Positions 16,471 to 33,457 of a stretch of 64,000 bases of DNA are shown piece by piece. Location of the stretch: positions 48,967 to 112,966 of the forward strand of contig JBMNVW010000001.1 in NCBI GenBank assembly GCA_050947035.1, read 5' to 3'. Under the pieces are notes generated by a model. That model was not told the origin of the DNA and did no database searches. It was given only the letters and a program-made list of their open reading frames with translations. The DNA is from Patescibacteria group bacterium. GTDB taxonomy: Bacteria; Patescibacteriota; Microgenomatia; 0-14-0-10-38-17. Positions within the stretch are counted from its first letter, which is position 1; the number at the start of each line of letters is the position of its first letter. A program made the position numbers and the translations under genes.

Positions 16471-17948
16471 ACTTGTAATGAGCCAAATTCTTCAATCGGA
16501 TAATAATTTTTGTTTAAAAAAGTTAATAAATCAGGAAAAGAATATCGATAATCTCGATCATAAACGACAATTTTAGGTAAATTCGTTTTAATGGCCGATA
16601 ACACTTCTTGGTGACGATCAAAATCACGAATATGATAAGCAACCGTATAACGACCAGCCGGCAAATGTCGAGACAGGGCATAAATATGAGGCTGATTTCC
16701 CCAAACAAAAATTTCCTCATTCCAAGGCAAGGCTTGGCTGATAAATTCGACCACTTGATAGTTCTCCAAAACATCTTGACCAAACCAACTAAAATATTCC
16801 TGCCGATTCTTTCTTCCTAAAGCAAACTGAGCGAAGTTTTGATAATAAGAAACAACGGTGTGGGTATAAAAATGATAACTAAAAAAACCGGCTACTAAAA
16901 AAACAACCGGGATTATGCCAACCAAAAGAAGTCGAATTTTCTTCTCAAAAAGAAAAACAAATAAAAACCCAAATAGAATTAACAAGGGGGCAACAACTTG
17001 AAGCAAATAATGGGGATAGGGTCGGGATGATAAAAAAGCCCCAAAAATAGCCAAAAACAGCCACAAAAAAACCAAAAGAAATCGTTTATTTTTTAAGAAA
17101 AATTTTCTTTGCCAAAAAATTCCCAACAAAACGATCATTAAAATTATCCCCCGCCAAAATAGTTGGTTAGATAAAAGAGAAGCTTCTTTTTGTCCTCCCC
17201 AAGAAGACAAATAGGGAAGGTTTTGCAACCAGGCTGATTCCCAATAATAAAAAAGAGCTCCCGGCCTTAGGGCATAAAAAACAAAAGTTAAAAGAGGGGG
17301 AATTAAAAAGCCGATCACCAATGGCGCCTTTGCTTTTACTTTGGCAAAAAAATCTTCTTTATTTTTGGCGAGGGTGAAACTTAATAAAAAAGAGAAAATT
17401 AACAGGGCCGACCAATCAAAAAGAGGCGGACTTTTAAAAAGAAAAGCCGCTCCCATCATCAAACCAGAGTGCCAAAGTTTTTCTTCCAAGAAAAAATAAA
17501 CTCCTAAGATAACTAAACCGATAAAAAAATGTTCGGCGTTGGTAATTGGTCCCTCAAAAATAGGCAAAGAGGTTAAAAAAACAAACAAGGTGGTTAAAAC
17601 CAGAGTCAGATTCTTTGACTTAAAAAACTTCTTGGCCAATTTAAAAAATGCTATTGTGGTTCCCATCATCCAAACCAGCAAAATAAAGCGGAACCAAAAA
17701 ACATTTCCGGCTATAGCGGCTAGCCAATATAAAAGCGGAGGCTTGTTGTCGTGAATATCCCGATAGAGAGTTTGGCCTTGACGAACGGATTGGCCGAGAG
17801 TTAAATAAATTCCCTCATCGCCATACCAAAAGGGCTCAAACAAAGAGGGCAACCTTAAAACCAAAATCAAAAACAACAAAACAAGCAAAAAAGCCGGCCA
17901 GTTTTTGGTTTTTGATTCAATTTTTTCTAAAAAAGATGAAAGTTTCAT
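16455..17948 (-). CDS. GT-C fold membrane glycosyltransferase (GT39/GT83, ArnT/PMT-like)
   Basis: 497 aa polytopic protein with a periplasmic-loop acidic motif (FEPFWYGDEGIY), as in ArnT/PMT-type transferases. Confidence 0.55.
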   Translation of the reverse strand: MKLSSFLEKIESKTKNWPAFLLVLLFLILVLRLPSLFEPFWYGDEGIYLTLGQSVRQGQTLYRDIHDNKPPLLYWLAAIAGNVFWFRFILLVWMMGTTIAFFKLAKKFFKSKNLTLVLTTLFVFLTSLPIFEGPITNAEHFFIGLVILGVYFFLEEKLWHSGLMMGAAFLFKSPPLFDWSALLIFSFLLSFTLAKNKEDFFAKVKAKAPLVIGFLIPPLLTFVFYALRPGALFYYWESAWLQNLPYLSSWGGQKEASLLSNQLFWRGIILMIVLLGIFWQRKFFLKNKRFLLVFLWLFLAIFGAFLSSRPYPHYLLQVVAPLLILFGFLFVFLFEKKIRLLLVGIIPVVFLVAGFFSYHFYTHTVVSYYQNFAQFALGRKNRQEYFSWFGQDVLENYQVVEFISQALPWNEEIFVWGNQPHIYALSRHLPAGRYTVAYHIRDFDRHQEVLSAIKTNLPKIVVYDRDYRYSFPDLLTFLNKNYYPIEEFGSLQVWFLF

Positions 17949-20979: not shown

Positions 20980-21339
20980 TTAAGAGGAAAGGCTAAAAAT
21001 ATTCTTAATCTTCTTTTCCCAATTAGCTGCCCATTCTTCTGCTTCTAGTTTTTCTAAGATCTTTTTAACCCCCGGTTTAGTAAGATCATTTTGAAGCTTG
21101 GCAATCGTGGCTGGGGAAATGTGAAACCTGGCCCTAATTTGACTATATTTTTGGCCTTTTTTTAAGGCCCAAAGAATGGCTAATCTTTTGGCTAAAGCAA
21201 TTTGTTCGGCCGAGCTTAATAATTGACGACAAAAACTTTCGGCCTCTTTGGGAGAGCCAATATCAGCAATCAACTGATAAAGATAAGCAAAAATCTCCTC
21301 TTTAACTTTGGGATCTAATTTCTTGCCGGATAGGCGCAT
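20980..21339 (-). CDS. TrpR-like DNA-binding protein (YerC/YecD family)
   Basis: 119 aa; SFCRQLLSSAEQIALAKRLAILWALKKGQKYSQIRARFHISPATIAKLQNDL aligns with the YerC/YecD TrpR-fold family. Confidence 0.6.
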   Translation of the reverse strand: MRLSGKKLDPKVKEEIFAYLYQLIADIGSPKEAESFCRQLLSSAEQIALAKRLAILWALKKGQKYSQIRARFHISPATIAKLQNDLTKPGVKKILEKLEAEEWAANWEKKIKNIFSLSS

Positions 21340-21454
21340 AATTCAATAGATTAATGATTATTACAATATAGTATAGCATATTTTTTCTTCTGACTATCTT
21401 GCATAATTAGTTGTCTACTGATAGAATGGCACCAGATAAACAAAATAATAATTT

Positions 21455-21703
21455 ATGCCTATTACCAAATCGGCCAAAGGGGCCCTTAAAAAAGACCAGC
21501 GACGCCAAGCAGAAAACCTAAAAACCAAAAGCGCCTATAAAAAGGCGATTGACTATTTTAAGAAAAATATTTCTGCCAAAGCTTTATCTAAGGCTTATAC
21601 CAAAATTGACCGAGCCGCCAAAAAACACGTAATTCATAAAAACAAAGCCTCCCGTCTTAAGTCCCAGCTGGCCAAACTCCTAAAAGAAAAGGGGGAAAAA
21701 TAA
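21455..21703 (+). CDS. rpsT: 30S ribosomal protein S20
   Basis: 82 aa basic protein, MPITKSAKGALKKDQRRQAENLKTKSAYKKAI... S20 pattern. Confidence 0.85.
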   Translation: MPITKSAKGALKKDQRRQAENLKTKSAYKKAIDYFKKNISAKALSKAYTKIDRAAKKHVIHKNKASRLKSQLAKLLKEKGEK

Positions 21704-21831
21704 TCAAGATCGTATTTATCTTTCCTCTTTCTTTCTTAGACTTTTACTTTTCTTCCGACTAACAATAATAGCAAATAATTAAAACCTTATTTAGCTAAAG
21801 ACCAAGGACAAAAGACCAAAGACCAAAGTCT

Positions 21832-21860
21832 TTGACAATCCCTCAAAAAATGCCTATACT
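21832..21860 (+). promoter_or_regulatory. Sigma-70-type promoter (TTGACA-N17-TATACT) for the pilN/pilO-like operon
   Basis: Exact -35 TTGACA (21832..21837), a 17-nt spacer, and -10 TATACT (21855..21860), 25 nt upstream of the 21885 ATG. Confidence 0.65.
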
Positions 21861-21884
21861 GGTTTTTAAGATTGTTTATCTTTC

Positions 21885-22418
21885 GTGCCTAAAAAAAAGC
21901 CAGAAATTTCACTATTACCAAAAGAGGGGGGACGATTTGACCAAGTCTCCGATTGGGTTATCGAAACTGGCCGCTGGATTGTAGTTTTAACGCTTTTTTT
22001 TGTTCTCTTGGCCTTTTTATCTCGTTTTTGGTTAGATCAAAAAATTGCCGACCTTTACGCCCAAACGGCTCAAAGAGTGGCTATTGTTGAGGCCACTCAA
22101 GATTTTGAAGAAGAATTTCGTTTTTTACAAAACCGGCTTGAAAAAATAAAAGCTCTTGATGGGCAAAAACCCGACCAAGCAGAAAAAATTGAAAAAATTG
22201 TTGCTATTCTACCCGAAAAAATTAACCTAACCTCTCTCGAAATCAGCCAAGATCAAGTTAGTTTTTCTGTTGTTTCTCGAAACGAGACCGACTTAAATAC
22301 TTTTTTCCAAAACTTAATCCTTTGCCCTTATCTAGATCAAATCAATATTGCTAGCATTTCTAGCAAAACCTTTGGCCTAGAAACAGAACTATCTATTAAG
22401 GCCAAATTTAATGATTAA
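21885..22418 (+). CDS. pilN: Type IV pilus assembly protein PilN-like
   Basis: 177 aa; N-terminal ISLLP (INLLP-like) motif, single TM, periplasmic coiled coil plus a ferredoxin-like domain. Confidence 0.5.
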   Translation: MPKKKPEISLLPKEGGRFDQVSDWVIETGRWIVVLTLFFVLLAFLSRFWLDQKIADLYAQTAQRVAIVEATQDFEEEFRFLQNRLEKIKALDGQKPDQAEKIEKIVAILPEKINLTSLEISQDQVSFSVVSRNETDLNTFFQNLILCPYLDQINIASISSKTFGLETELSIKAKFND

Positions 22419-22420
22419 AA

Positions 22421-23068
22421 ATGATTAACCTGCCAAAACCATCTTTTCGCCATTATCTGTCTCAAGTTCCCGCTCCGGTTCGGGAAAAAAGTCAAAAATG
22501 GGCCCCCACTGTCGCCGCTCTTTTCTTAACCACTTTTTTTATTATTTTTGCCATTCGGCCAACCGTTATTACTATTTCTGAGCTTTTGGCCGAAATTAAA
22601 GCCCGAGAAGAATTAAACCAAAAGTTAGGGGTAAAAATTGATCAAATCTTTGCCGCCCAAGCCCTTTACAATCAGGTTTATGATCGTCTTTATCTTCTCG
22701 ATCAGACTTTACCCACCAATCCCGACTTTGCCCACTTTTCTCAAACTCTGGAAGGCAATCGCTTAGAGACTAATTTGGCTCTAAAAACCCTTAACTATTC
22801 TTCAATTGTTTTAACAGAAAAAAAAGATCAGGGGTTAACAAAAGAAAGTCAAAGTTTTATTTTCTCTTCTGGTCTAGCCGGCAATTATCCCAATTTAAAA
22901 ACCCTTCTTGATAATATTTTTCATCAAAGAAGAATTGTCTATATCGACAACCTTAAAATTAGCCAAACCAAAAACAATCAAGATGAGGAAGAATCAACTA
23001 ATTTACCATTGACAATTAGCCTTAACGGCAAAGCTTTTTATCTGGGTTATGAACAAAACAAAGAATAA
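22421..23068 (+). CDS. pilO: Type IV pilus assembly protein PilO-like
   Basis: 215 aa bitopic protein with a coiled coil, immediately after pilN (3-nt gap). Confidence 0.4.
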   Translation: MINLPKPSFRHYLSQVPAPVREKSQKWAPTVAALFLTTFFIIFAIRPTVITISELLAEIKAREELNQKLGVKIDQIFAAQALYNQVYDRLYLLDQTLPTNPDFAHFSQTLEGNRLETNLALKTLNYSSIVLTEKKDQGLTKESQSFIFSSGLAGNYPNLKTLLDNIFHQRRIVYIDNLKISQTKNNQDEEESTNLPLTISLNGKAFYLGYEQNKE

Positions 23069-23393
23069 AATAAAAAAAGACAACGACTGGTTGATTATTG
23101 CTATTTTTGTCTTGATTTGCGCTCTTGCTTGGGTAGGCACCAACACTTATCACAGTTATGTTGATAAAAAAGAAGTTGTGGCTCAAAAAGATTTGCTTGT
23201 TCCTCTAGAACCGAAAATAGACCAAGCCCTGTTTGATATTTTGGAAACAAAAAATTATTTAGAGGAAGGAAGACTAATCGAAATTCTTTCTGATTCTGAT
23301 ATCAGCCTAATAACCCCAACCCCAAGCCCAGTTGAATTGCCAACCGAAGAGGATTTGGCCCCTATTCCACCAGAAGAAATAGAAATTCCGTAA
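23049..23393 (+). CDS. Small bitopic membrane protein with Pro-rich C-terminus (hypothetical, pilus-operon associated)
   Basis: 114 aa, one TM helix, overlaps the pilO-like gene by 20 nt. Confidence 0.3.
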   Translation: MNKTKNKIKKDNDWLIIAIFVLICALAWVGTNTYHSYVDKKEVVAQKDLLVPLEPKIDQALFDILETKNYLEEGRLIEILSDSDISLITPTPSPVELPTEEDLAPIPPEEIEIP

Positions 23394-23397
23394 AATT

Positions 23398-24807
23398 ATG
23401 GGGAGAAAAAAAAGAACAAGGACAATCCCCAGTATCGTCGGTCTATTAATCTTATCCAGTCTTGTTTTGGGTGGTGTTTATCTGACGCAAAGGTTAAAAA
23501 CAGGCCGACAGGTTTCCGCCTCCGCTCAACCGGTGTCAGTAAGGGTAGCCAATATCAAGGCTCAATCGGCCACCATATATTGGTTAACTGAAGAGCCGGC
23601 CCAGGGCAGCGTTAAAATTAATAATCAAGTTTATCTTGACGACCGAGACAAAAATCTTAACCAACCCCAAAACTATCTAACCCACTACGTCACCCTTGAC
23701 AATTTAAAGCCAGAAAAAAATTATCAATTTACTATTATTAGCCAAGGCCAAGATCATCAAGAAAATAATTTCCAATTTACTACCGCCCGCTCTTTGGCTG
23801 GTCCGACTAAAGAGGCTGATTTGGCCTTTGGCCTAGTCTTGGACCAAACAGGCCAACCCTCGTCTGGAGCCCTGGTTACTTTATCTTTAACCGGGGCGGC
23901 TAGTCTTGCCAGCCTAACCGATCAGGCCGGCTTTTGGTCTATTCCCTTAAGTACGGCTTATCAAAAAAATTTAACTAATCCAATTGATTACGACCAGGAA
24001 AAACAAATCTTGGAAATTTTTGTTGAGGCTAAAATTGGCACAGCGGCTACCGTTATCACCAATACCGGTAACGATCACCCTGTTCCCCCCATTACTATTG
24101 GCCAAACTTATGATTATTCCCAAAATCCCCCCTCTCCTAAACAACACCCCCAAGATTTCGACTGGTCAAGTCCGGAAATAAAAGAAGAAATAAATAATCA
24201 TTTTTCTCAAGAGGAACCGGCCAAAACCGAGACAACAACTCAAGAAGCAGAGAAGCTTCTTCTTGATATTGACAACCCTCAAGAAGGAGAAACTGTTCTT
24301 ACTACTCGACCAAAATTTTCCGGTCAAGGACCGGCCAATCAAAAAATTAAAATTACCCTAGAATCGGAAAAAAAGTTTGAAGAAGAGGTGGCTGTTTCTT
24401 CTTTTGGCTCCTGGCAATGGACCCCGCCGGAGGGCCTTGCCCCCGGCCAACATACCATTACTGTTGAATATTACGATGATAATAATCTTCTTCAAACTAT
24501 CTCTCGAACTTTTGTTGTCCAAGCCGCCAGCGCTTCTCCTTCGCCAACCCCAATTACCCCCCTGCCAACCAGACCAGCCAATACCCCAACCCCAACTCCA
24601 AAACCACAAAATACAATTACCCCTTTATCATCACCAACAACAACTTTAACCAGCCAGCCTTCTCCCACTACAGTCTCTCCCATCCAAGAAGATCCCGGCC
24701 CGGAAAAAATTGTTTCCGGCAGCTTGACTCCCTTGGTCATTCTTGCTATCTTGGGTTTAGGCCTTATCTGTTTTGCGGTTAATATTTATCAAAATAAATG
24801 GCAATGA
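23398..24807 (+). CDS. Cell-surface protein with N-terminal FN3-like domain, Pro/Thr-rich stalk and C-terminal TM anchor
   Basis: 469 aa; signal/TM at the N-terminus, an FN3/purple-acid-phosphatase-N-like domain (SATIYWLTEEPAQGSV...KPEKNYQFTII), a PTPxP linker, and a C-terminal hydrophobic helix. Confidence 0.45.
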   Translation: MGRKKRTRTIPSIVGLLILSSLVLGGVYLTQRLKTGRQVSASAQPVSVRVANIKAQSATIYWLTEEPAQGSVKINNQVYLDDRDKNLNQPQNYLTHYVTLDNLKPEKNYQFTIISQGQDHQENNFQFTTARSLAGPTKEADLAFGLVLDQTGQPSSGALVTLSLTGAASLASLTDQAGFWSIPLSTAYQKNLTNPIDYDQEKQILEIFVEAKIGTAATVITNTGNDHPVPPITIGQTYDYSQNPPSPKQHPQDFDWSSPEIKEEINNHFSQEEPAKTETTTQEAEKLLLDIDNPQEGETVLTTRPKFSGQGPANQKIKITLESEKKFEEEVAVSSFGSWQWTPPEGLAPGQHTITVEYYDDNNLLQTISRTFVVQAASASPSPTPITPLPTRPANTPTPTPKPQNTITPLSSPTTTLTSQPSPTTVSPIQEDPGPEKIVSGSLTPLVILAILGLGLICFAVNIYQNKWQ

Positions 24808-26171
24808 TACCACCTAAGCCCCAAAAACCACCCCTACCACCGAAACCCGACCAAAAACCCTTAAAGGTTAACACTAAAACCGCTAACATTAATCAACCAA
24901 AAGAAGGAAAAACTTCCTCCTCCCAAAACCAAAAAAGAAAAAATATTTTTATAATTGTGGCCCTTATTCTTTTGGCGGCGGCGGCCATAGCCGGAGCCTT
25001 CTTCCTGCTTCAAGAAAGGCAAGATATTAGAAAAGCGGCCGCCCCATCAGATCTACCCTCATGTGATAATTACACGACAACCCGTTGCTATGGTGAATGT
25101 GAGGGATGTATAGAATATGAAATTTGCGAAATTGACGGAGGAGGTTGGTGCCGAAATCGTCTAATTAATCCTGATTCTCCCCGGTGCGGCCCCGATTGTG
25201 GTGAGGATAGCGGTGGTGGTGATGATGGTGGAAGTGGCGACGAAGAAGCCCAAACTTGCTCACCAGAAAATCCGGGAGCAGAAAACAGCTGGTGTGTTAG
25301 CCAACACAGTCAGGAAACCAAAGAAAATGCTACTTGGTCTTGCGAACCGAATAGCCCGGATTCCGGCGATGACGGCTGCTTGCAAATTTGCCAATCCGGC
25401 TACGTTTGGGAAAGCGATTTTAGCAAATGTATAAAAACCGCCGGAGAATCGGGCCAGCTAATTTGTCAAAGAATTAACAACCACGAAATCAAAATTACCA
25501 ACAATACGGGCACGACTATTCCTTATGAGAAAATTGTCTTCCGCGGCTGCCCCTATGATAGTGCTGATTGCCAAGGCAGTCAATATCGAACCGAATATGT
25601 CCAGCCCTCAATTAATACCGGCCAGACTAAAACCGAATCCACCGCCCCAGCCTATTGCGAAACAATCCAGCTTGATATTAAGAGTCTTTCTTCCCAATAC
25701 TCCTGCCTTACTTCTGAGGGCCAACCTTGGGACGGAGGAGTCGCTTTTGCCATTGATCATCATTGGGACGAAACCTGCGAAGAAGATGAACCCCCAACAC
25801 CAACAGAACCAGAACCCACTATTACTCAACCCGAATATAGTTGCAACTGTCATACGATAAAAATTTACGATCAAGATAAAAACCTAATCAACGCTGACAA
25901 TCTAGAAAATTTAAGGGCCGGCGATCTAATTTATATTGGCGTTGTTGCCAACAACGGCTATCCCAATTACCCGGTTACCAAGGCCCAGATCCGGGTTAAT
26001 CGCAATTACTGGCTCGAACAAGACGAAACAACGGAAAAAATTGATCACGACCATCCGGCCCATCTAGTGGAATTTATTAAGCCCTACACAATCCCTGACG
26101 GTATTTTAAACTTTAAGGTTGAAGCAGAAGTTTATCTTGATGCCCCGGGCGATCTTGGGGGCTGGTTATAA
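24798..26171 (+). CDS. Cys-rich surface protein with N-terminal signal anchor (hypothetical)
   Basis: 457 aa, Pro-rich cytoplasmic head, one TM helix, about 30 Cys in the extracellular part. Confidence 0.4.
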   Translation: MAMIPPKPQKPPLPPKPDQKPLKVNTKTANINQPKEGKTSSSQNQKRKNIFIIVALILLAAAAIAGAFFLLQERQDIRKAAAPSDLPSCDNYTTTRCYGECEGCIEYEICEIDGGGWCRNRLINPDSPRCGPDCGEDSGGGDDGGSGDEEAQTCSPENPGAENSWCVSQHSQETKENATWSCEPNSPDSGDDGCLQICQSGYVWESDFSKCIKTAGESGQLICQRINNHEIKITNNTGTTIPYEKIVFRGCPYDSADCQGSQYRTEYVQPSINTGQTKTESTAPAYCETIQLDIKSLSSQYSCLTSEGQPWDGGVAFAIDHHWDETCEEDEPPTPTEPEPTITQPEYSCNCHTIKIYDQDKNLINADNLENLRAGDLIYIGVVANNGYPNYPVTKAQIRVNRNYWLEQDETTEKIDHDHPAHLVEFIKPYTIPDGILNFKVEAEVYLDAPGDLGGWL

Positions 26172-26177
26172 GTTATT

Positions 26178-26909
26178 ATGACAATTAAAAAATTCTTTAA
26201 AACTATTGCTATTGTTCTTTCGGTCCTTTCCCTTTTAGGACTAACGGTTTTTTTGGCTTATAAAATCCATCAAACCCGGCAGGAAAGCCTGGCCCCCACC
26301 GAGCCGGAAGCGGTGAGTCAGGACTGTACCCTAGAATTTAGCATTAAGCCGGCCCCGGTAGAACCGGAATGTTATCAAACCTGTGACCTTGATAATGACC
26401 TTTGTCCTGATGGTCTAGCCTGCCAAGAAGTCGATGGAAGCCCGGTTTGTGTTAATCCCGATTGTCCGGAAGAGGAAGATTGCCTTTGTCCGGAACCTAT
26501 TCCTGAATGCTATCAAACCTGTGACCTTGATAATGATCTCTGCGCTGGCGATTTAGTTTGCCAAGAAGTCGATGGAAGCCCGGTTTGTGTTAATCCCGAT
26601 TGTCCGGAAGAGGAAGATTGCACCTGCCCGGGGGAACCAACCGCCACTCCCACCCCCACCGCTACTCCGACTCCAACCGCTACCGCTACTCCTTCCCCAA
26701 CAGTAACTCCTACTCCCACTTCTCAACCAGAAGCCACTACTACCCCTGGCCAAGATGAGCCCACCCAAAAACCAGCCACCGTTGCTCAGACTACTCCTAC
26801 CAGTCCACCCCCAACAACCCTACCGGAAGCTGGCAGTATCTTGCCTACTTTGGGAGTAATTTTGGGCGGGTTAACCCTGGCTGCTCTAGGCTTCTTTTTC
26901 GTCTTTTAA
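26178..26909 (+). CDS. Surface protein with 2 x 46-aa Cys-rich tandem repeat, TP-rich linker and LPEAG sorting-signal-like C-terminus
   Basis: 243 aa; a repeat unit ECYQTCDLDNDLC..CQEVDGSPVCVNPDCPEEEDC.CP occurs twice, then TPTPTATPTPTAT, then LPEAG followed by a hydrophobic helix at the extreme C-terminus. Confidence 0.5.
   Translation: MTIKKFFKTIAIVLSVLSLLGLTVFLAYKIHQTRQESLAPTEPEAVSQDCTLEFSIKPAPVEPECYQTCDLDNDLCPDGLACQEVDGSPVCVNPDCPEEEDCLCPEPIPECYQTCDLDNDLCAGDLVCQEVDGSPVCVNPDCPEEEDCTCPGEPTATPTPTATPTPTATATPSPTVTPTPTSQPEATTTPGQDEPTQKPATVAQTTPTSPPPTTLPEAGSILPTLGVILGGLTLAALGFFFVF
26367..26642 (+). repeat. Tandem 138-bp near-identical direct repeat inside the CDS (2 units)
   Basis: Units 26367..26504 and 26505..26642 are about 90% identical at the nucleotide level. 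Confidence 0.85.
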
Positions 26910-26921
26910 CCACTTTTAACA

Positions 26922-28145
26922 ATGACCAAGAAAAAAATCGCTATTGTCGGCGGCGGTATTACCGGTTTATATCTTGGCTACCGATTAGGCGCCAAAAACA
27001 AAGTAACTATCTTTGAGAAAAAAAAAGCCCTCGGCGGACTGTTATCGAGTTTTTCTCTAGGCAATAACGGTTGGGCCGTTGATAATTTCTACCACCACTT
27101 TTTTCCCTCCGATAAAAATTTAATCAGCCTCCTAAAAGAACTTTCCTTACCATACTCTTTTAGTAAACCAACCAGCGCCATTTGGCATAACGGAAAAATT
27201 AGCCGCTTTTCTTCCCCCGCTGATTTAATTGCTTTTCCCAACCTTGGTCTTATTAATAAACTGCGCTTTGGGGCAACCATCGCCTTGGCAAAATTAATTC
27301 CTAATTATCACCTAATCCCCGATCAAAAAACAAAAAAGATTTTTTTACCCCTTGGCGGTAAAAAAGCCTATCAGGTGGTTTGGGAACCGTTAATGAGGGG
27401 CAAGTTTGGTCCCAAAAGCGAGCAAATATCGGCCATTTGGCTTTGGGCCAGAATCAAAAAAAGATCAGCCCGTCTTGGCTATCCTAAGGGAGGATTTATT
27501 ACCCTAAACCAAAAATTAGCCCAAGAAATAATTAATCAGGGCGGGCAAATTAAAACAAAAAATAAAATAAGCCAAATAAAGCAGCTGGAAAATTTTGACC
27601 AGATTATTTTCACCACTCCCAAAGCCGTCTTCAACCAAATTACCAAGCAAAAAAGGACCGATAACATTGACTATTTAGCCAGCCTTAACTTGGTTCTATC
27701 TGGAAAAGAACCTATTCTTAATAACAATCTTTACTGGCTTAGCATTGCCGATGCCTCCTTTCCTTTTGTGGCCGTTGTCAACCAGGCCGGATTAGTTGAT
27801 AAAAAAAATTACCATAATCTTTACCCGACCTATATCGGTGGCTACTACCAGCAAGACGATCCCTTATTGGCCGCTTCACCTCAGGAAATTTTGGCCCGAT
27901 TTGCTCCTTTTATTAAAAAAATTAACCCCCGCTTTGAAGAAAAAAATTTTCAAGCAAAAATAACTAAATACCGCTGGGCCCAACCGATCGTCGAGCCGGG
28001 CTACCAAAAAAAACGCCCCGCCTTTAAAACTAAATGGCCCAATACCTATCTGGTTAATATGGCCCAAATTTACCCTTGGGACAGGGGGGTTAATTATGCC
28101 ATTTTTCTAGCCGATCAATTCTTGAAAACAGTTGCTTTTGGATAG
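26922..28145 (+). CDS. FAD/NAD(P)-binding oxidoreductase (amine-oxidase / protoporphyrinogen-oxidase-like fold)
   Basis: 407 aa; N-terminal Rossmann dinucleotide motif IAIVGGGITGLYLGYRL...E....GG. Confidence 0.6.
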   Translation: MTKKKIAIVGGGITGLYLGYRLGAKNKVTIFEKKKALGGLLSSFSLGNNGWAVDNFYHHFFPSDKNLISLLKELSLPYSFSKPTSAIWHNGKISRFSSPADLIAFPNLGLINKLRFGATIALAKLIPNYHLIPDQKTKKIFLPLGGKKAYQVVWEPLMRGKFGPKSEQISAIWLWARIKKRSARLGYPKGGFITLNQKLAQEIINQGGQIKTKNKISQIKQLENFDQIIFTTPKAVFNQITKQKRTDNIDYLASLNLVLSGKEPILNNNLYWLSIADASFPFVAVVNQAGLVDKKNYHNLYPTYIGGYYQQDDPLLAASPQEILARFAPFIKKINPRFEEKNFQAKITKYRWAQPIVEPGYQKKRPAFKTKWPNTYLVNMAQIYPWDRGVNYAIFLADQFLKTVAFG

Positions 28146-28169
28146 TTAATTAGTTTAGAATAAGGCTAA

Positions 28170-29081
28170 ATGAACAACCTTAAGGCCGTAATCACCTCCC
28201 TAAGGCCCTATCAGTGGATTAAAAATTTAGCTATTTATTCGGCGATTCTTTTTACTGGTCATCTTTTTGACGAAAACTATTTTCTAATCACCACCGCCGG
28301 TTTCGTAATTTTTTCTCTTCTTTCTTCAGCCTCATACTTGCTAAATGATATCGCTGATATTGCCCATGATCGGCTTCATCCAGTGAAAAAAAAGCGGCCC
28401 ATTGCCTCCGGTAAATTGCCAATAAACACCGCTTTTCAAATTTCAATTTCTCTTTTTATTTTTGGTTTAGCGGGAGCCTTTTTAATCAATAAAAATTTCT
28501 TTTTTATTTCTTTAGTTTTTTCTCTTCTTCATCTTGTCTACTCCTTTTTTCTAAAAAAACACCCCCCCCTAGATATCTTGGCTATTGCCACTTCCTTTGT
28601 TTTGCGCACCTTGGCCGGGGAAACACTAACCGGATTCCATATCCCTATCTGGTTAATCTTTTCAGTAATTTTCTTGTCTTTATTCATTGCCAGTGGTAAA
28701 AGAAGGTCGGAATTATTAAAAGAGGGCCAAGAAACCAGACCAGCTCTAAAACAATATCGCCAGGAATTGCTAAATTCTTATTTATCTATTTTTGGCACCG
28801 CCACTCTAATTTCTTATGCCCTTTTTACCTTTACCGCCTCACCACCAGACTTTAGTGGTAAGCTTTTAAGTTTTTTATTGGCCAATTATCCTAAAACTGT
28901 TGACCGAAAATGGCTAATGCTCTCTGTCCCCTTTGTCATCATCGGCCTAATGCGCTACGCTCAACTGGTCTTCTTGGTTCAAGAAGGGGAAGCACCGGAA
29001 AAAACCATCAAAGATCCTTACCTATTTCTTTCTATTTTGAGTTGGGGAGCCACTATTTTTGCCATCATTTATGTCTTCTAG
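28170..29081 (+). CDS. UbiA-family polyprenyl-phosphate 5-phosphoribosyltransferase (DPPRT-like, Rv3806c family)
   Basis: 303 aa, 8-9 TM helices. LRPYQWIKNLAIYSAIL, YLLNDIADIAHDRLHPVKKKRPIASGKL (NDxxDxxxD) and ASGKRRSELL align closely with mycobacterial decaprenyl-phosphate phosphoribosyltransferase. Confidence 0.85.
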   Translation: MNNLKAVITSLRPYQWIKNLAIYSAILFTGHLFDENYFLITTAGFVIFSLLSSASYLLNDIADIAHDRLHPVKKKRPIASGKLPINTAFQISISLFIFGLAGAFLINKNFFFISLVFSLLHLVYSFFLKKHPPLDILAIATSFVLRTLAGETLTGFHIPIWLIFSVIFLSLFIASGKRRSELLKEGQETRPALKQYRQELLNSYLSIFGTATLISYALFTFTASPPDFSGKLLSFLLANYPKTVDRKWLMLSVPFVIIGLMRYAQLVFLVQEGEAPEKTIKDPYLFLSILSWGATIFAIIYVF

Positions 29082-30675
29082 GAAAAAAGTCTTTTTCCTA
29101 ATTATTATTTTAGCTTTGGCGCTTTTCTTTCGCTTTGCTGGTCTTGATTGGGGAGGAGGCCACTATTTTCATCCTGACGAAAATAATATGGCCCAAGCCG
29201 TTCTTTCCCTAGAAAAAAATGGTCAACCCGATTTTTATGCTTATGGTCAGTTACCGCTTTTTTTGACCCTTTTTTCGGCTCGAACCTATAAACTGTTTTC
29301 TTTTATTCACCAGCAAAACCAGCTGGACTTTTCGGAGGCCATATTTTTCCTCCGCTTTTGGTCAGCAATAGCCGGAGTAACCACTGTTTTTTTGGTTTAC
29401 CTATTGGGAAAAAAACTAATTAACACCCAATCAGGGATAATGGCCGCTTTGGTTACCGCCTTTTTGCCCGGTTTAATTCAAGCCAGCCACTTCGGTACCA
29501 CCGAGTCTTATTTGGCCCTTTTCTATTTGGCAACTGCTTATTTTTCTTTAAATATTTACCAAGAAAAAAATCGCAAAAACTTCTTGTTCACCGGTTTATT
29601 TTTAGGGCTAGGACTAGCTACTAAAATATCAGCCGCTGCCTTTTTCCTCTTGCCGCTTACTGCCAGCGCTCTGGCCGGTAAAAACAAAAAAAGGCCGATA
29701 GGGGATTTAGCTAAAAATCTTTTTGCTGGCGGTCTTCTTGCCGTTATCACTTGGCTGATCTTTTCTCCTTTTTTAATCATTAACTTTTCCCAAACTCTAA
29801 CCACCCTAAAGTATGAAATTGCTGTTGCCAAAGGGGAAGTTATTCCTTTTTATACTCGACAATTCCTAAACACTATCCCTTTTTGGTTTCAGGCCAAAAG
29901 GGTCTTGCCCTTTTTGCTGGGCTGGCCGGTTTTTATTATTTACTTATTGGGAATAGTTAGATTAGTGAAAGAAAAAAAGAAGGCTCCTCTCTGGTTGATT
30001 ATTCTTTTACCAAGTTTGATTTTCTTTCTTTATCAGGGACAGTTATTTGTTAAGTGGACTCGTTTTATGGTACCGATCGTCCCTGTTTTTCCACTGCTGT
30101 TTGCTAAAGCAATTAATAAAATATCTAAGCCACTACAATATATTGTACTAATAGTTTCTTGCTTGCCGGGACTTTTTTTCTTCGACTTAGTTTATAATCA
30201 ACCCAATATTCGCTGGCAATTTTCCTCTTGGGCTAAAGAAAATCTACCTAAAAATTCACTTATCTTATCCGAATCAGGCAACGTTATTAATCTTCCCATT
30301 AATACTAACCATCAAGTCATTAACTTTGATTTTTATCAACTAGAAGAGGGGCAAAATTTAAAACTCCTTTGTCAACATCTTGAAGGGGCTGATTATATTC
30401 TTGTTCCCAGCCGAAGAGTTTTTGCCAACCACCAAGAGAACCAATTTCCCAATATTGCCGACTACTACCAAAAGCTTTTTTCCAACCAATTAGGTTTCTC
30501 TTTAGTAAAAACCTTTTCTCCTACTAGTCGTTATCCTTTAGCTAATCTTTATTATCAAAAAAGCGAAATCAGGGCTGAGGAGACCTGGACTGTCTTTGAT
30601 CATCCCACCATTAGGCTGTATCAAAAAAATAAACCCCTATCAACAGAGGAATATTGTCACATTTTAACCTATTAA
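29059..30675 (+). CDS. GT-C fold membrane glycosyltransferase, paralog 1 (PMT/ArnT-like, HPDE motif)
   Basis: 538 aa polytopic protein; first extracytoplasmic loop GGHYFHPDENNMAQAV. The start may be the internal Met at 29071. Confidence 0.6.
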   Translation: MPSFMSSRKKVFFLIIILALALFFRFAGLDWGGGHYFHPDENNMAQAVLSLEKNGQPDFYAYGQLPLFLTLFSARTYKLFSFIHQQNQLDFSEAIFFLRFWSAIAGVTTVFLVYLLGKKLINTQSGIMAALVTAFLPGLIQASHFGTTESYLALFYLATAYFSLNIYQEKNRKNFLFTGLFLGLGLATKISAAAFFLLPLTASALAGKNKKRPIGDLAKNLFAGGLLAVITWLIFSPFLIINFSQTLTTLKYEIAVAKGEVIPFYTRQFLNTIPFWFQAKRVLPFLLGWPVFIIYLLGIVRLVKEKKKAPLWLIILLPSLIFFLYQGQLFVKWTRFMVPIVPVFPLLFAKAINKISKPLQYIVLIVSCLPGLFFFDLVYNQPNIRWQFSSWAKENLPKNSLILSESGNVINLPINTNHQVINFDFYQLEEGQNLKLLCQHLEGADYILVPSRRVFANHQENQFPNIADYYQKLFSNQLGFSLVKTFSPTSRYPLANLYYQKSEIRAEETWTVFDHPTIRLYQKNKPLSTEEYCHILTY

Positions 30676-30696
30676 ATAAAATTAATAATCAACTAA

Positions 30697-32361
30697 ATGA
30701 CTAACAAAAAAAAACTTCTTTTTTTCTTAATCATTATTTTGTTAGCCGGTTTTTTTCGGTTTTTGGGTTTAAGTTGGGACCAAGGCCAAATGCTTCATCC
30801 CGACGAAAGGTTCTTAATGATGGTAACCAACAACCTTGATTGGCCCCAAAACTGGTCTAGTTTTTTTAATACCGATCTTTCTCCCCTTAATCCCCATAAT
30901 CGAGGTTACGATTTTTTTGTTTATGGCACTTTGCCGATTTTTTTGCTTAAAAAATTGGCCAATATTTTTGGCATAAGCGGCTATCAAGACCTTCTTCTGT
31001 TAGGTCGATCTTTGTCGGCCACTTTTGATCTTGCTTCTGTGGTTTTGGTCATCCTTATCGGCCAAAAACTTTTCCCCAAAAAATCGATCGGTCTTTGGGC
31101 CGGTCTTTTCTACGCTATTAGCGTTTTACCTATGCAACTGGCTCATTTTTACACCACGGATGTCTTTTTAAACTTTTTTTTACTAGTCGCTTTTTATTGG
31201 CTGGTGCTTTTTAGCCAAAAGGGAAAGGTCGGCCCTTTAATCTTGTCGGCAGTTTTTTGGGGAATGGCAGCCGCCTGCAAAATTACCGCCCTATTTTTTG
31301 GCCCCGTCTTAGCCGCCGTAGTTTTTTTCCAAAATAAAAAAAGATTTTTATCTAAACTGATAATTGCTCTTTTGGCTTTTTTTATTACCTGGCGCCTTTT
31401 CCAGCCCTATGCTTTTACCGGCCTTTTTACCCCTAATCAAAAATTCTTGGCTAATCTTGCCTCACTTAAAAATTTTAGCCGACCCGATTCTCTCTATCCT
31501 CCCTCTGTCCAGTGGCTAAACACCCGGCCGATTCTTTATTCTTTAAAAAACTTGACCCTTTGGGGCCTAGGGATACCGCTATTCGTTATTATAATTACCA
31601 GCCTATTCTTTTTCCCTCTTTATCTTAAGAAGAAAAAAATATTTTCCCAAGAGATAATCTATTATTGTCTTTATTTTTGGCCCCTGGCTCTTTTCTTTTA
31701 CCAAGCTTGCCAGTTTGTTAAACCAATGCGCTATCTTCTGCCTATTTATCCCTTTTGGTCAATTATTGGCGCCTGGGGGATAAGAAAAATTATAAATAAT
31801 AATGGCCAAGTTGGTTCTAAAATAGTTTGGGTTTTGGCTGGGTTAGCCTTTATTTGGCCCTTAAGTTTTATCAGTATTTATCTTCGCCCCCATTCCCGCC
31901 TCCAAGCCTCAAGCTGGATTTATGATCACATTAGCCCCGGCTCAACTTTATCTTGTGAGCACTGGGATGACTGTTTGCCCTTATCGGTCGAGAGCAAAAG
32001 CTGGCAGAGTCAGCCTTACCAAATCGAAACTCTTTCTCTTTATGATCCAGAAAGCCCGGAAAAATGGCAGAAAATAAATCACCAGCTGGAAAAAATCGAC
32101 TATTTAATCTTGTCTTCTAATCGTCTTTGGGGCAGTATTCCCAAAAACCCCAAGCGATATCCCAAAACAACCAAATTCTATCAAGATTTGTTTCGAGATA
32201 AACTGCAATTTAAAAAAGTGGCCGAGTTTACCTCTTTGCCCTGTTTTCCTCCCGGCCTGGACTGGTTTTGTTTTAATGACCAGGGGGCGGATGAATCTTT
32301 TACTGTTTACGACCACCCTCAAGTTATTATTTATCAAAAAGCCAATCATAGCAGTCAATAG
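30697..32361 (+). CDS. GT-C fold membrane glycosyltransferase, paralog 2 (PMT/ArnT-like, HPDE motif)
   Basis: 554 aa; N-terminus LLFFLIIILLAGFFRFLGLSWDQGQMLHPDERF parallels the upstream paralog. Confidence 0.6.
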   Translation: MTNKKKLLFFLIIILLAGFFRFLGLSWDQGQMLHPDERFLMMVTNNLDWPQNWSSFFNTDLSPLNPHNRGYDFFVYGTLPIFLLKKLANIFGISGYQDLLLLGRSLSATFDLASVVLVILIGQKLFPKKSIGLWAGLFYAISVLPMQLAHFYTTDVFLNFFLLVAFYWLVLFSQKGKVGPLILSAVFWGMAAACKITALFFGPVLAAVVFFQNKKRFLSKLIIALLAFFITWRLFQPYAFTGLFTPNQKFLANLASLKNFSRPDSLYPPSVQWLNTRPILYSLKNLTLWGLGIPLFVIIITSLFFFPLYLKKKKIFSQEIIYYCLYFWPLALFFYQACQFVKPMRYLLPIYPFWSIIGAWGIRKIINNNGQVGSKIVWVLAGLAFIWPLSFISIYLRPHSRLQASSWIYDHISPGSTLSCEHWDDCLPLSVESKSWQSQPYQIETLSLYDPESPEKWQKINHQLEKIDYLILSSNRLWGSIPKNPKRYPKTTKFYQDLFRDKLQFKKVAEFTSLPCFPPGLDWFCFNDQGADESFTVYDHPQVIIYQKANHSSQ

Positions 32362-33457
32362 TTTTTTGATAAGAAAAAATCTCTTCAGCCTTGCTTTTAT
32401 CAACGGCTGTTTTAGGACCACTTAAAAGGCTAACAATTTTTTTAGCTAAATCGGAAGAATCGCCCACCAAGAAAGTCTTGCCAAAACCGGTTTTTTCAAC
32501 CGGCTCTCTTACTCCAGGTAAATTAGCCGCCACTACCGGCCTACCAAAAAGCATCGCCTCAACTTGAACAATACCAAAAGATTCCAGAGTATCATCGCTT
32601 GGCAAAACCAAAAGGTCAATGACTTGATAAAAAGCGGCCAATTGTTTTTGGTCAAGAGGGCCTAAAAAAAGAATATTTTCGGAATATTTTTTAATTTCTG
32701 GGGCAATTTCTTGGGCAAAATCTTCGCCAATAATTTTCTTTGGACCGGCTAAAATAATCTTAAAAGAGGCCAGCTCTTTTTTTAAAATGGGAATCGCCTT
32801 TAGCAAGATCGGCAAACCCTTTTGGCGGGCAATTCTACCCGAAAAACCGATCCGATATTTTACTCCCGACAACTTTTGAGACAATTCTTTTTTATAAGCC
32901 TTGTCAGGCTGGGCAACGACTACCGGCGGATAGGTAAAAACCAACTTTTGCCTAAAGCGCGATAAAAACCGAGAATGATTAGCATAGTCTTTGGTATAAA
33001 CCACGATTTTATCAGCCAGACTGGCCGTTATAATCTGCGACAGGTTAACCACCCCTTCCGACAGACGATTAAAAAATCCCGGCCAGCCGGAAAGATCAGT
33101 ATGATGAGTCAAAATTAGCCTTTTTTTTAAAATTTTGGCCCAAAAGGCTAAAAAAATTGCCTCAAATTGAGGCAAGTGGCAATTGACTACATCGGCTTCT
33201 TTTACTAGTCGATAAGAAGAAAAGGGAAAAAGGGGCATTATTACTCCCTTGCCCAAACAAAAAGCTACCCAGTCCCGAATAATTGTTAAACCGGCTTTTT
33301 TTTCTCTCTTAGGCAAATCTGGTTGGTGCCGAGAAGTTAAAATCGTAACTTGATGGCCTCGGGCTAACAAGCCTTGGGCTAACCTTTTAGCATAAATTGT
33401 TACCCCGGAAATATTGGGCTCAAAGTAGGTTAAAGAGATTAAAATTTTCATCGTCAA
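32327..33457 (-). CDS. Glycosyltransferase family 4 (GT-B fold)
   Basis: 376 aa; C-terminal EAMLFGRPVVAANLPGVREPVE (E-x7-E) motif. Confidence 0.8.
   Translation of the reverse strand: MTMKILISLTYFEPNISGVTIYAKRLAQGLLARGHQVTILTSRHQPDLPKREKKAGLTIIRDWVAFCLGKGVIMPLFPFSSYRLVKEADVVNCHLPQFEAIFLAFWAKILKKRLILTHHTDLSGWPGFFNRLSEGVVNLSQIITASLADKIVVYTKDYANHSRFLSRFRQKLVFTYPPVVVAQPDKAYKKELSQKLSGVKYRIGFSGRIARQKGLPILLKAIPILKKELASFKIILAGPKKIIGEDFAQEIAPEIKKYSENILFLGPLDQKQLAAFYQVIDLLVLPSDDTLESFGIVQVEAMLFGRPVVAANLPGVREPVEKTGFGKTFLVGDSSDLAKKIVSLLSGPKTAVDKSKAEEIFSYQKTIDCYDWLFDK

What the first reader, a model, noticed from the sequence alone, without database searches (positions are those of the whole stretch)
23398..26909. 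Surface-protein trio downstream of pilN/pilO: FN3 stalk protein, Cys-rich protein, and a 46-aa tandem-repeat protein ending in LPEAG plus a TM anchor (sortase-substrate-like)
Three consecutive genes encode envelope-exposed proteins. The third contains a 138-bp near-perfect tandem duplication (26367-26504 and 26505-26642) encoding a Cys-rich 46-aa module. It then has a TP-rich linker and LPEAG immediately before a C-terminal hydrophobic helix, the layout of an LPXTG-class sorting signal but with Ala at position 4 and no basic tail. The nucleotide-level identity of the repeat suggests recent expansion or contraction (contingency-like variation) of a surface adhesin in an episymbiont-type organism.
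Basis: partly seen in the sequence, partly recalled or inferred. Interest (0 to 1): 0.55.

Follow-up and report, generated by a model that had tools for sequence, protein, structure and literature searches.

The report
Sortase-type surface proteins beside pilN/pilO
Three neighbouring genes in an uncultured ultra-small (Microgenomates) bacterium encode cell-surface proteins in a gene cluster conserved across that lineage, and two of them belong to families ending in an unusual version of the signal Gram-positive bacteria use to attach proteins to their cell wall; the internal repeat is an old duplication, not a fast-switching one.

Summary
The features described are real, but two claims are overstated. 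The 138-bp tandem duplication is at the stated coordinates. It is 82% identical (113/138), with a 66-nt perfect core, not near-perfect. Copy-specific signatures are shared with an orthologue at 76% protein identity. So the duplication is old and partly homogenised, not a recent expansion.

LPEAG is conserved. The third gene (F) belongs to a family with no Pfam or NCBIfam model: 1,558 50%-identity clusters. Members have a conserved N-terminal membrane anchor, a swappable middle (0-4 Cys modules, other domains, or nothing), a Thr/Pro stalk, then LPxAG-x3-PT and a hydrophobic end. 111 of 168 tails end exactly 24 residues after the Gly. None has a basic tail.

The same tail occurs on orthologues of the first gene (D) and on E-type proteins. 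Variants include canonical LPDTG, LPATG and VPETG. The only curated model that aligns is LPXTG_anchor.

All three genes sit in a cassette (pilN-pilO-X-D-E-F) found in every related locus with enough sequence, beside cell-wall genes.

No sortase lies in the window or in ±10 kb of the related loci. Literature reports sortase as near-ubiquitous in Microgenomates. Best reading: a lineage-specific sortase-type anchor (confidence about 0.5). I rate it a new variant of a known kind.

The parts
21832..21860 (+). Best sigma-70-like promoter match (TTGACA-17-TATACT, 11/12), 25 nt upstream of pilN
   Evidence: It is the top match in 21300-33000, but the total number of promoter-like sites equals the shuffle expectation, so this is suggestive only.
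21885..22418 (+). pilN (177 aa), first gene of the cassette; the N-terminus contains ISLLP
   Evidence: Pfam PilN 36.2 bits against cutoff 22.8. Syntenic in L002, L007-L012. That ISLLP corresponds to the PilM-binding INLLP motif of PilN proteins is recalled from my own knowledge, not tested.
22421..23068 (+). pilO-like gene (215 aa)
   Evidence: T2SSM_b 20.5 bits and PilO 18.4 bits, both just below cutoff. Orthologues in L008 and L009 are recorded as PF04350 PilO.
23049..23393 (+). Gene X: small bitopic membrane protein (114 aa), no family; conserved third gene of the cassette
   Evidence: Present in every locus that extends far enough upstream.
23398..24807 (+). Gene D: N-terminal TM, fn3, CarboxypepD_reg-like and Big_13 Ig-like domains, PT-rich stalk, C-terminal signal
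   Evidence: Pfam; 103 homologues.
24709..24804 (+). D C-terminal signal: IVSG-SLTP, TM helix, NIYQNKWQ tail. This is a degenerate form (Pro at position 2 replaced by Val) of the [LIVM]Px[STA]G-x3-PT signal of D orthologues.
   Evidence: 79 of 103 D orthologues carry the motif and 59 of those 79 have a K/R tail. No NCBIfam hit for this tail.
24798..26171 (+). Gene E: Pro/Lys-rich cytoplasmic N-terminus, TM + LLQERQDIRK motif, variable Cys-rich middle, two beta-sandwich domains; no C-terminal anchor
   Evidence: The last 115 aa are 77-78% identical to the L001 and L002 orthologues, while the whole protein is 35-43% identical.
26178..26909 (+). Gene F: founding member here of the LPxAG-tail family
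26199..26339 (+). F N-terminal TM helix plus conserved juxtamembrane motif (K-I-H-Q-T-R-Q-E..APTEPEA..C-T-L-E-F)
   Evidence: Invariant Q32, P40, P43, C50. Logo: L 100%, Y 96%, Q 100%. AF2 helix 3-35, pLDDT 84-91.
26367..26504 (+). Cys-rich module, copy 1 (8 Cys; PDG loop variant)
26505..26642 (+). Cys-rich module, copy 2 (8 Cys; AGD loop variant)
26643..26819 (+). Thr/Pro-rich stalk (disordered linker; contains short 18/24-nt imperfect repeats)
   Evidence: TRF rows 26637-26692; AF2 pLDDT 44-53.
26820..26906 (+). C-terminal sorting-type signal: LPEAG-SIL-PT plus a 19-residue helix ending at the C-terminus
26922..32361 (+). Downstream genes, probably co-transcribed: FAD oxidoreductase (PRK07233), UbiA-family phosphoribosyl/prenyl transferase, two PMT_2 (GT-C) glycosyltransferases
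   Evidence: Gene gaps range from -23 to +24 nt, and no intergenic terminator-like site was found. Synteny.

Best explanation
The trio is the distal half of a six-gene cassette, pilN-pilO-X-D-E-F, which is conserved across Microgenomates (CPR bacteria). The cassette sits in a cell-wall biogenesis neighbourhood.

Architecture of F:
1. A retained N-terminal membrane anchor with a conserved juxtamembrane motif ([KR]-L-Y-Q-x-R-Q-E..AP-x2-P..C-x-L-x-F).
2. An exchangeable passenger. Here it is two 8-Cys disulfide beta-hairpin modules.
3. A Thr/Pro-rich stalk.
4. A lineage-specific cell-wall-sorting-type signal: LPxAG-x3-PT plus a 19-residue helix that ends the protein, with no basic tail.

Proposed mechanism (inferred):
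- The housekeeping sortase of these organisms cleaves between Ala and Gly and links F to the peptidoglycan cross-bridge. In other lineages it does the same to D and to some E-type proteins.
- Because the N-terminal anchor already holds the protein in the membrane, the usual charged stop-transfer tail is dispensable.
- The Thr/Pro stalk is a plausible substrate for the PMT-type O-glycosyltransferases encoded immediately downstream.

The repeat is an old duplication of a mobile module, locally homogenised by gene conversion. The passenger region diversifies by cassette swapping between species, not by phase variation.

Shown: the architecture, the conservation, the synteny, and the sharing of the tail among different passengers.
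Inferred: cleavage, wall linkage, glycosylation, and any functional tie to PilN/PilO.
For: Tail conservation
- Of 168 tails, 116 are LPxAG, 17 LPxSG and 7 LPxVG.
- The protein ends 24 residues after the Gly in 111 tails and 22 residues after it in 33.
- No K or R occurs in the last 7 residues of any of the 168.
- Logo over the 111 tails of the 24-residue class: P-3 100%, G0 100%, L-4 91%, P+4 91%, T+5 91%, G+12 93%.

The tail behaves as a shared signal, not a single-family feature
- The D orthologue in L013 ends VPVSG + 24 residues with no basic tail.
- A protein with an E-type N-terminus in L012 ends VPETG + 24 residues.
- P0057 and P0152 combine an E-type N-terminus with the F tail.
- An F paralogue in Woesebacteria ends LPDTG + TM + SKNIT.
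- 79 of 103 D orthologues end x-[P/V]-x-[S/T/A]-G + TM. 59 of these have a K/R tail. They include LPATG, LPPTG, IPKTG and VPETG.

Database and literature support
- Among 18,950 NCBIfam models, TIGR01167 LPXTG_anchor is the only sorting-signal model that aligns to the tails (a few unrelated models gave E >= 0.2). It covers model positions 1-28 of 34 and scores 12.6-16.8 bits against a cutoff of 15.9. One relative passes.
- LPXAG is a documented minor sortase A motif (PMC7137321, PMC2657157).
[quoted passage not shown] A closed Microgenomates genome encodes one (PMC7143001).

Context
- pilN-pilO-X-D-E-F is present in L002, L007-L012 (L011 is the 99%-identical strain of the window's organism). 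L001 and L005/L006, and L013, where the contig ends first, show D-E-F.
- Neighbours are PMT_2, LCP and FemAB in the related loci, and MurJ, a polysaccharide deacetylase, a Glu racemase and FemAB in the window.

Placement of the motif
- AF2 puts LPEAGSIL outside the last helix (222-242) and makes residues 3-35 one helix.

Age of the repeat
- Nucleotide identity is 88% between the two copies in the window, 82-83% to the orthologous L002 copies, and 77% between the two L002 copies. The copy-specific signatures are shared between genomes.
Against: - No sortase gene is in the 64-kb window. All but a few ORFs of at least 100 aa that are not nested inside longer ORFs were scanned against Pfam, and no TLxTC motif occurs in any frame.
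- No TLxTC motif occurs in the ten loci scanned (L001-L010, about 160 kb), and the gene tables of L011-L013 list no sortase family. The rest of the source genome could not be searched.
- The signal departs from the canonical one on two points. Thr at position 4 occurs in only 2 of 168 tails. The positively charged tail, which belongs to the textbook definition (PMC4155245), is absent in 168 of 168.
- The window's own tail scores 12.7 bits, below the TIGR01167 cutoff of 15.9.
- The strong sequence conservation of both TM helices and the fixed tail length would also fit a permanent helical hairpin.
- In about 220 kb searched with the tail HMM, only cassette proteins carry the tail. That is unusual for a housekeeping sortase.
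Confidence: 0.5

Rival explanations
1. F is an uncleaved two-helix hairpin membrane protein. The LPxAG-x3-PT stretch and the conserved N-terminal motif are packing or capping elements. They dock the two helices to each other, or to the single TM helices of PilN, PilO and X, and so make F a structural accessory of the type IV pilus alignment complex. No transpeptidation takes place.
For: - Both TM helices are conserved in sequence at specific positions: N-terminal L 100%, T 88-90%, A 88-92%; C-terminal G+12 93%. A discarded signal peptide would not be expected to show this.
- The tail has a fixed length and no basic residue in 168 of 168 cases.
- The gene is always linked to pilN/pilO.
- Some members have no passenger at all, only a linker (P0017, P0033, P0035).
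- No sortase gene lies nearby.
Against: - A pure packing motif would not be expected to drift to canonical LPDTG, LPATG or VPETG with basic tails in paralogues and D orthologues.
- It would not be expected to be the only thing matching the LPXTG_anchor model.
- AF2 places LPEAGSIL outside the helix.
- The Thr/Pro stalk directly before the motif is the classical wall-spanning layout of sortase substrates.
Confidence: 0.25
2. The tail is a sorting signal for a different, still unrecognised C-terminal processing enzyme of CPR bacteria. Such an enzyme would be analogous to exosortase, archaeosortase or rhombosortase, and might replace the helix with a lipid or glycan anchor rather than a peptidoglycan link.
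For: - The signature is sharply defined and has an extended part that the canonical LPXTG signal does not have (PT at +4/+5, G at +12, exact length, no charged tail).
- Several multi-TM proteins without a family, or with a DUF only, recur nearby. Examples are 16455-17948 and DUF2298 at 41086-43104.
Against: - No exosortase, archaeosortase or rhombosortase family was hit in the window.
- No PEP-CTERM, PGF-CTERM, GlyGly-CTERM or IPTL-CTERM model aligned to the tails, even at E up to 10.
- Known signals of those systems also carry basic tails (my own knowledge).
- The drift towards canonical LPxTG points to sortase.
Confidence: 0.1
3. One reading: F is an adhesin whose 138-bp repeat recently expanded and acts as a contingency (phase or length-variable) locus.
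For: - Copy number differs among relatives, from 0 to 4.
- The two copies share a 66-nt perfect tract.
- The repeat broke a short-read assembly of a 99%-identical strain.
- The 5' part of F differs at 16 of 273 positions between the two strains, against about 1% in the flanks.
Against: - The copies are only 82-88% identical.
- Copy-specific substitutions are shared with orthologues at 60-76% protein identity.
- Only two units are present, with no short-unit repeat tract.
- No strain-level copy-number variant was found.
- The relatives that differ in copy number are species- or genus-level, with flank genes 55-85% identical.
Confidence: 0.07

Closest known systems
LPXTG cell-wall sorting signal of sortase substrates (TIGR01167 LPXTG_anchor), including the LPXAG variants of staphylococcal and S. 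uberis proteins
   Same: - A pentapeptide L-P-x-small-G sits directly before a C-terminal hydrophobic helix.
- It is preceded by a Pro/Thr-rich wall-spanning region.
- The domain aligns to TIGR01167 positions 1-28.
- Canonical LPDTG, LPATG and VPETG occur in cassette paralogues and orthologues.
   Different: - Ala, not Thr, is the rule at position 4 (128 of 168).
- The basic tail is absent in all 168 tails.
- The length is fixed at 24 or 22 residues.
- There is an extra conserved P-T at +4/+5 and a G at +12.
- The tail is coupled to a conserved, probably retained, N-terminal anchor.
- The window's tail scores below the model cutoff (12.7 against 15.9 bits).
- No cognate sortase has been identified.
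Actinomyces oris GspA / LcpA / SrtA system (a glycosylated, sortase-anchored surface protein; PMC6381275)
   Same: A sortase-type substrate is encoded together with glycosylation machinery. LCP (LytR_cpsA_psr) genes lie next to the cassette in L008, L009, L010, L012 and L013, and PMT-type glycosyltransferases lie directly downstream in the window.
   Different: - There is no sequence relationship.
- Glycosylation of F is not shown.
- GspA uses a class E sortase with an LAXTG motif (my own knowledge).
- No LCP gene was found in the window itself.
Type IV pilus alignment subcomplex PilM/N/O(/P)
   Same: pilN passes its Pfam threshold, and a pilO-like gene follows it as the head of the same apparent operon. 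All six products are bitopic or hairpin membrane proteins.
   Different: - pilM, pilB, pilC and the pilins are absent from the window.
- D, E, F and X have no counterpart in described T4P systems.
- A functional link is inferred only from synteny.
Cysteine-rich eggshell membrane protein (CREMP) modules, PDB 9pgb
   Same: The beta-hairpin core C-P-x-G-x2-C-x3-D-G-x-P-x-C-V matches CREMP modules. The summed score is 34.7 bits, E = 1.8e-7.
   Different: - Each individual stretch is weak (i-Evalue 0.9-9) and covers only about 20 residues.
- The flanking Cys pattern (C-x3-C ... C-x5-C-x-C) is not shared.
- The fold search found nothing significant.
- This is probably a recurrent small disulfide-hairpin motif rather than homology.

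Membership tests
Sortase substrate (LPXTG-type cell wall sorting signal) | LPXTG pentapeptide (Thr at position 4, Gly at 5) | tested here: not met
   The window has LPEAG. The family has Ala 128, Ser 23, Val 10, Pro 5 and Thr 2 of 168 at position 4. P and G are invariant in the 111 tails of the 24-residue class. LPXAG is a documented minor variant.
Sortase substrate (LPXTG-type cell wall sorting signal) | Hydrophobic membrane-spanning segment directly after the motif | tested here: met
   24 uncharged residues follow the motif. AF2 predicts a helix at 222-242.
Sortase substrate (LPXTG-type cell wall sorting signal) | Positively charged C-terminal tail | tested here: not met
   0 of 168 tails have K or R in the last 7 residues. 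D orthologues mostly do have one, 59 of 79.
Sortase substrate (LPXTG-type cell wall sorting signal) | Score at or above the TIGR01167 cutoff (15.9 bits) | tested here: not met
   The window tail scores 12.7 bits. Relatives score 12.6-16.8 bits, and only the P0026 tail passes.
Sortase substrate (LPXTG-type cell wall sorting signal) | A sortase encoded in the same genome | not testable with these tools
   There is none in the window and none in the flanks of the related loci. The literature reports sortase as near-ubiquitous in Microgenomates (PMC6744442).
Sortase substrate (LPXTG-type cell wall sorting signal) | Cleavage after position 4 and amide linkage to the peptidoglycan cross-bridge | not testable with these tools
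   This needs biochemistry or proteomics.
PilN (PF05137) | Pfam score above the gathering threshold | tested here: met
   36.2 bits against 22.8. The TM segment begins at about residue 24.
PilO (PF04350) / GspM | Pfam score above the gathering threshold | tested here: inconclusive
   PilO scores 18.4 bits against 22, and T2SSM_b 20.5 against 21.7. The orthologues in L008 and L009 are recorded as PilO.
fn3 / Big_13 Ig-like surface protein (gene D) | Pfam scores above the gathering thresholds | tested here: met
   fn3 scores 27.6 against 25, and Big_13 31.7 against 27.
Contingency locus (repeat-mediated phase or length variation) | Near-identical repeat units | tested here: not met
   The units are 82-88% identical.
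Contingency locus (repeat-mediated phase or length variation) | Copy-number variation within a population | tested here: inconclusive
   The only near-identical strain has 120 N in the repeat. Length variation within a 90% cluster was artefactual.
Exosortase, archaeosortase or rhombosortase targets (PEP-CTERM, PGF-CTERM, GlyGly-CTERM, IPTL-CTERM) | Match to one of the curated C-terminal domain models, and a cognate enzyme nearby | tested here: not met
   No such model aligned to eight tails at E up to 10. No EpsH-type family was found in the window.

The most novel reading that the evidence does not exclude
The pilN-pilO-X-D-E-F cassette could encode a CPR-specific, wall-anchored extension of the type IV pilus alignment complex, standing in for the missing PilP/PilQ.
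- F would act as a two-ended tether. Its conserved N-terminal helix would dock with PilN/PilO in the membrane. Its C-terminus would be covalently attached to peptidoglycan.
- The attachment would be made by a sortase whose specificity has shifted to LPxAG-x3-PT.
- The charged tail would have become dispensable because the substrate is already membrane-anchored.
- The tip modules would be swapped between species under selection from hosts or phages.
Probability: 0.15. Interest if true: 0.75.

Novelty: new variant of a known kind. Interest (0 to 1): 0.5.

Why it matters
[quoted passage not shown] In the searchable literature I found no description of what it anchors.
- This cassette offers concrete, conserved candidate substrates and a precise signal definition: LPxAG-x3-PT, 22 or 24 residues to the C-terminus, no basic tail. 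That definition can be turned into a model and tested for co-occurrence with sortase.
- The cassette explains where pilN and pilO sit in genomes whose main pilus locus lacks them (PMC7143001).
- It links pilus-alignment genes to wall-anchored, probably glycosylated, modular surface proteins in organisms whose envelope is otherwise almost unknown.
- The practical limit is that these organisms are uncultured, so the tests would be bioinformatic, heterologous or metaproteomic.

Tried and rejected
1. Exact-match lookup of F found nothing. The reason emerged later: the public assembly has 120 N inside the repeat.
2. The search for related loci with the broad alignment failed because it had no conserved stretch. 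The narrow alignment found only 2 genome loci, one of them on a contig labelled Gammaproteobacteria that is probably mis-binned.
3. Sortase hunt. The TLxTC regex over six frames of the window and ten loci gave only non-sortase hits in a GT2 enzyme and a racemase. The Pfam sweep of the window found none. I could not search the rest of the source genome, and I judged a word-indexed search with a Firmicute sortase useless for reaching CPR sortases.
4. A fold search of the F model found nothing significant. The best E-value was 1.2, and the top matches were knottin, EGF and Dkk-like domains.
5. The fold search of E gave only generic tandem beta-sandwich matches with TM-scores of 0.27 or less. E is not sortase-like.
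6. The CREMP similarity is limited to a 20-residue hairpin and was not taken as homology.
7. A taxonomy lookup through cluster members returned almost no names.
8. Prepilin peptidase as the processing enzyme was rejected on topology, as an inference. The LPEAG end of the last helix faces outward, whereas PilD cleaves at the cytoplasmic face.
9. The idea that the post-TM Q-x-RQ motif is a general export feature was rejected. Among predicted exported proteins of the window only E and F have it, and D has a looser form.

Full report
**1. What is in the sequence**

The window has 40% GC. It matches contig NPIE01000344.1 (467 kb, assembly GCA_015657915.1) at about 99% identity. Named relatives of its proteins are Candidatus Shapirobacteria, Woesebacteria and 'Microgenomates bacterium 39_7'.

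The + strand between 21885 and 32361 carries ten tightly packed genes, with gaps from -23 to +24 nt:
- pilN: Pfam 36.2 bits against cutoff 22.8.
- A pilO-like gene: 18.4 bits, below its cutoff. Its orthologues in L008 and L009 are recorded as PilO.
- D, E and F.
- An FAD oxidoreductase, a UbiA-family transferase and two PMT_2 glycosyltransferases.

The best promoter-like site of the region (11/12) is at 21832-21860, just before pilN, and no intergenic terminator-like site follows. A single operon is therefore plausible but not shown. The overall count of promoter-like sites equals the chance expectation.

**2. The repeat**

The 138-bp tandem duplication is real and in frame, with TRF score 433. 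It is not near-perfect.
- Identity is 113/138 (82%) over the stated coordinates and 88% over the 42-codon cores.
- The copies differ by 6 synonymous and 9 non-synonymous codon changes.
- These changes cluster in one loop (PDGLA in copy 1, AGDLV in copy 2) and in the inter-module linker, around a 66-nt perfect tract.

The same copy-specific signatures occur in the orthologues P0002/L002 (two copies) and P0001 (three copies). Nucleotide identity is 88% between the two copies in the window, 82-83% to the positional orthologues, and 77% between the two L002 copies. This pattern indicates an old duplication with a local conversion tract, not a recent expansion.

No strain-level evidence is available.
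- The only near-identical strain has 120 N exactly inside the repeat. This explains why F is not called in that record and why the exact-match lookup failed.
- Length differences inside a 90%-identity cluster were frameshift or contig-end artefacts.
- Upstream of the gap, F differs at 16 of 273 positions between the two strains, against about 1% in the flanks. This hints at recombination in the passenger region.

**3. The F family**

F matches no Pfam or NCBIfam family. A word-indexed search found 35 relatives. An exhaustive profile search found 1,558 50%-identity clusters at E <= 1e-3 and 723 at E <= 1e-10.

The conserved parts are the two ends.
- N-terminus: a TM helix with position-specific conservation, then [KR]-L-Y-Q-x-R-Q-E, AP-x2-P and C-x-L-x-F. 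Y is 96% and Q 100% conserved.
- C-terminus: L(91%)-P(100%)-x-A(75%)-G(100%)-x3-P(91%)-T(91%), then G at +12 (93%), ending ...LLAL. These percentages come from the 111 tails of the modal 24-residue class.
- Of 168 tails, the protein ends 24 residues after the Gly in 111 and 22 residues after it in 33. None has a K or R in the last 7 residues.

The middle is exchangeable.
- It holds 0, 1, 2, 3 or 4 Cys modules (63, 64, 33, 12 and 1 of 173 proteins).
- In L001, L005 and P0006 it is an unrelated domain of about 150 aa.
- In P0004 it is a DUF11-like cassette, which also occurs in the E orthologue of L002.
- In P0017, P0033 and P0035 it is only a TP linker.

AF2 (23-sequence alignment, mean pLDDT 69) gives a helix at 3-35, two small beta-hairpin modules (pLDDT 79-88), a disordered stalk and a helix at 222-242. 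LPEAGSIL lies outside that last helix. No significant structural neighbour was found. The CREMP match covers only a 20-residue hairpin.

**4. The tail is a shared sorting-type signal**

The same tail occurs on other passengers within the cassette.
- The D orthologue in L013 ends VPVSG + 24 residues with no basic tail.
- A protein with an E-type N-terminus in L012 ends VPETG + 24 residues.
- P0057 and P0152 join an E-type N-terminus to the F tail.
- A Woesebacteria F paralogue ends LPDTG + TM + SKNIT.
- Among 103 D homologues, 79 end x-[P/V]-x-[S/T/A]-G, usually followed by SLTPT and a TM helix. 59 of these have a K/R tail. They include fully canonical LPATG, LPPTG, IPKTG and VPETG.
- In the window's clade, D has lost the Pro at position 2 (EIVSG).

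Among 18,950 NCBIfam models, TIGR01167 LPXTG_anchor is the only sorting-signal model that aligns to the tails, and a few unrelated models gave E >= 0.2. The alignment covers the whole model except its basic tail. Scores are 12.6-16.8 bits against a cutoff of 15.9. LPXAG is a documented minor sortase A motif.

**5. Context**

pilN-pilO-X-D-E-F is present in L002, L007, L008, L009, L010, L011 and L012. D-E-F is present in L001, L005/L006 and L013, where the contig ends first. L011 is the 99%-identical strain of the window's organism. L010 has no D-like gene and instead carries two E-like/F-like pairs.

The neighbours are cell-wall genes: MurJ, PMT_2, LCP, FemAB, a polysaccharide deacetylase and a Glu racemase. 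A closed Microgenomates genome lists pilA/B/C/D/M/T at one locus without pilN or pilO (PMC7143001). That is consistent with pilN and pilO living in this separate cassette.

The Q-x-RQ motif after the TM helix is specific to E and F, with a looser form in D, among the window's exported proteins. E has a 45-residue cytoplasmic N-terminus, so it is a type II anchor. By analogy, and given the lack of a plausible signal-peptidase site, F's N-terminal helix is probably retained. This is an inference.

**6. The enzyme**

No sortase lies in the window. All but a few of its ORFs of at least 100 aa that are not nested inside longer ORFs were scanned against Pfam, and no TLxTC motif occurs in any frame. 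None was found in the flanks of the related loci either. I could not search the remainder of the genome.

Méheust et al. 2019 report a sortase family as near-ubiquitous in Microgenomates and patchy elsewhere in CPR (PMC6744442). The library search found no paper describing its substrates.

**7. Interpretation**

The best reading (about 0.5) is a lineage-specific variant of the sortase cell-wall sorting signal. F would be cleaved after Ala and linked to peptidoglycan. The retained N-terminal anchor would make the charged tail unnecessary. The TP stalk would be a likely substrate of the adjacent PMT-type O-glycosyltransferases, by analogy with A. oris GspA/LcpA (PMC6381275).

The rivals are:
- A permanent two-helix hairpin that associates with PilN/PilO (0.25).
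- An unknown non-sortase processing enzyme (0.1).

E resolves only to a TM anchor, a variable Cys-rich stretch and two beta-sandwich domains.

**8. Verdict**

Its main value is a testable set of candidate sortase substrates, and a conserved pilN/pilO-linked envelope cassette, in a poorly understood lineage.

Noticed in passing
window 14855-14913 and 34197-34255 (exact copies); about 5593-5650 (reverse, about 97%): A 59-nt palindromic element (TTTTTCTAAAGGTCCGAAGC...GCTTCGGACCTTTAGA) occurs at least twice exactly. One copy lies immediately beside the IS200-like Y1 transposase gene (14156-14818, - strand). This could be a REP/RAYT-like pairing.
   Followed up: partly
window 34301-37375 (-), 37368-37928 (-), 37934-39907 (-): A second block of secreted proteins without families: a 1024-aa Cys-rich protein with a classical signal peptide (…AWA|QSPYCGNG…), a 186-aa protein with no family, and a 657-aa protein whose only hit is a TAT signal.
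   Followed up: no
window 60624-63935 (-): The anaerobic ribonucleotide reductase NrdD is interrupted by an intein with a LAGLIDADG homing-endonuclease domain.
   Followed up: no
window 21705-21830 compared with L011 6925-7027: The rpsT-pilN intergenic region, next to the candidate promoter, differs in length (124 against 101 nt) between the window and a 99%-identical strain.
   Followed up: no
window 24798-26171 compared with L001:1170-2558 and L002:7159-8973: E keeps its N-terminal anchor and its last ~115 residues (77-78% identity), but its middle region is replaced wholesale between species. A DUF11-like cassette is shared between E of L002 and the F homologue P0004. One Cys module also sits in the E-like protein of L003.
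   Followed up: partly
window 54951-55823 (+) and 56764-59106 (-): A XerC/D-type tyrosine recombinase lies next to a 780-aa HerA/TraG/VirD4-like ATPase. This may be a remnant of a mobile element.
   Followed up: no
L005 (CAZUWK010000010.1): A contig carrying the complete Shapirobacteria-type F gene is deposited in a MAG labelled 'uncultured Gammaproteobacteria bacterium'. This is probably a binning contaminant.
   Followed up: no
window 16066-16470 (-) and 16455-17948 (-): A pair of membrane proteins with no family (134 and 497 aa) lies next to a GT4/MraY-like gene. The pair recurs with the same neighbours in L003 and L007, so it may be an undescribed envelope-glycan component.
   Followed up: no
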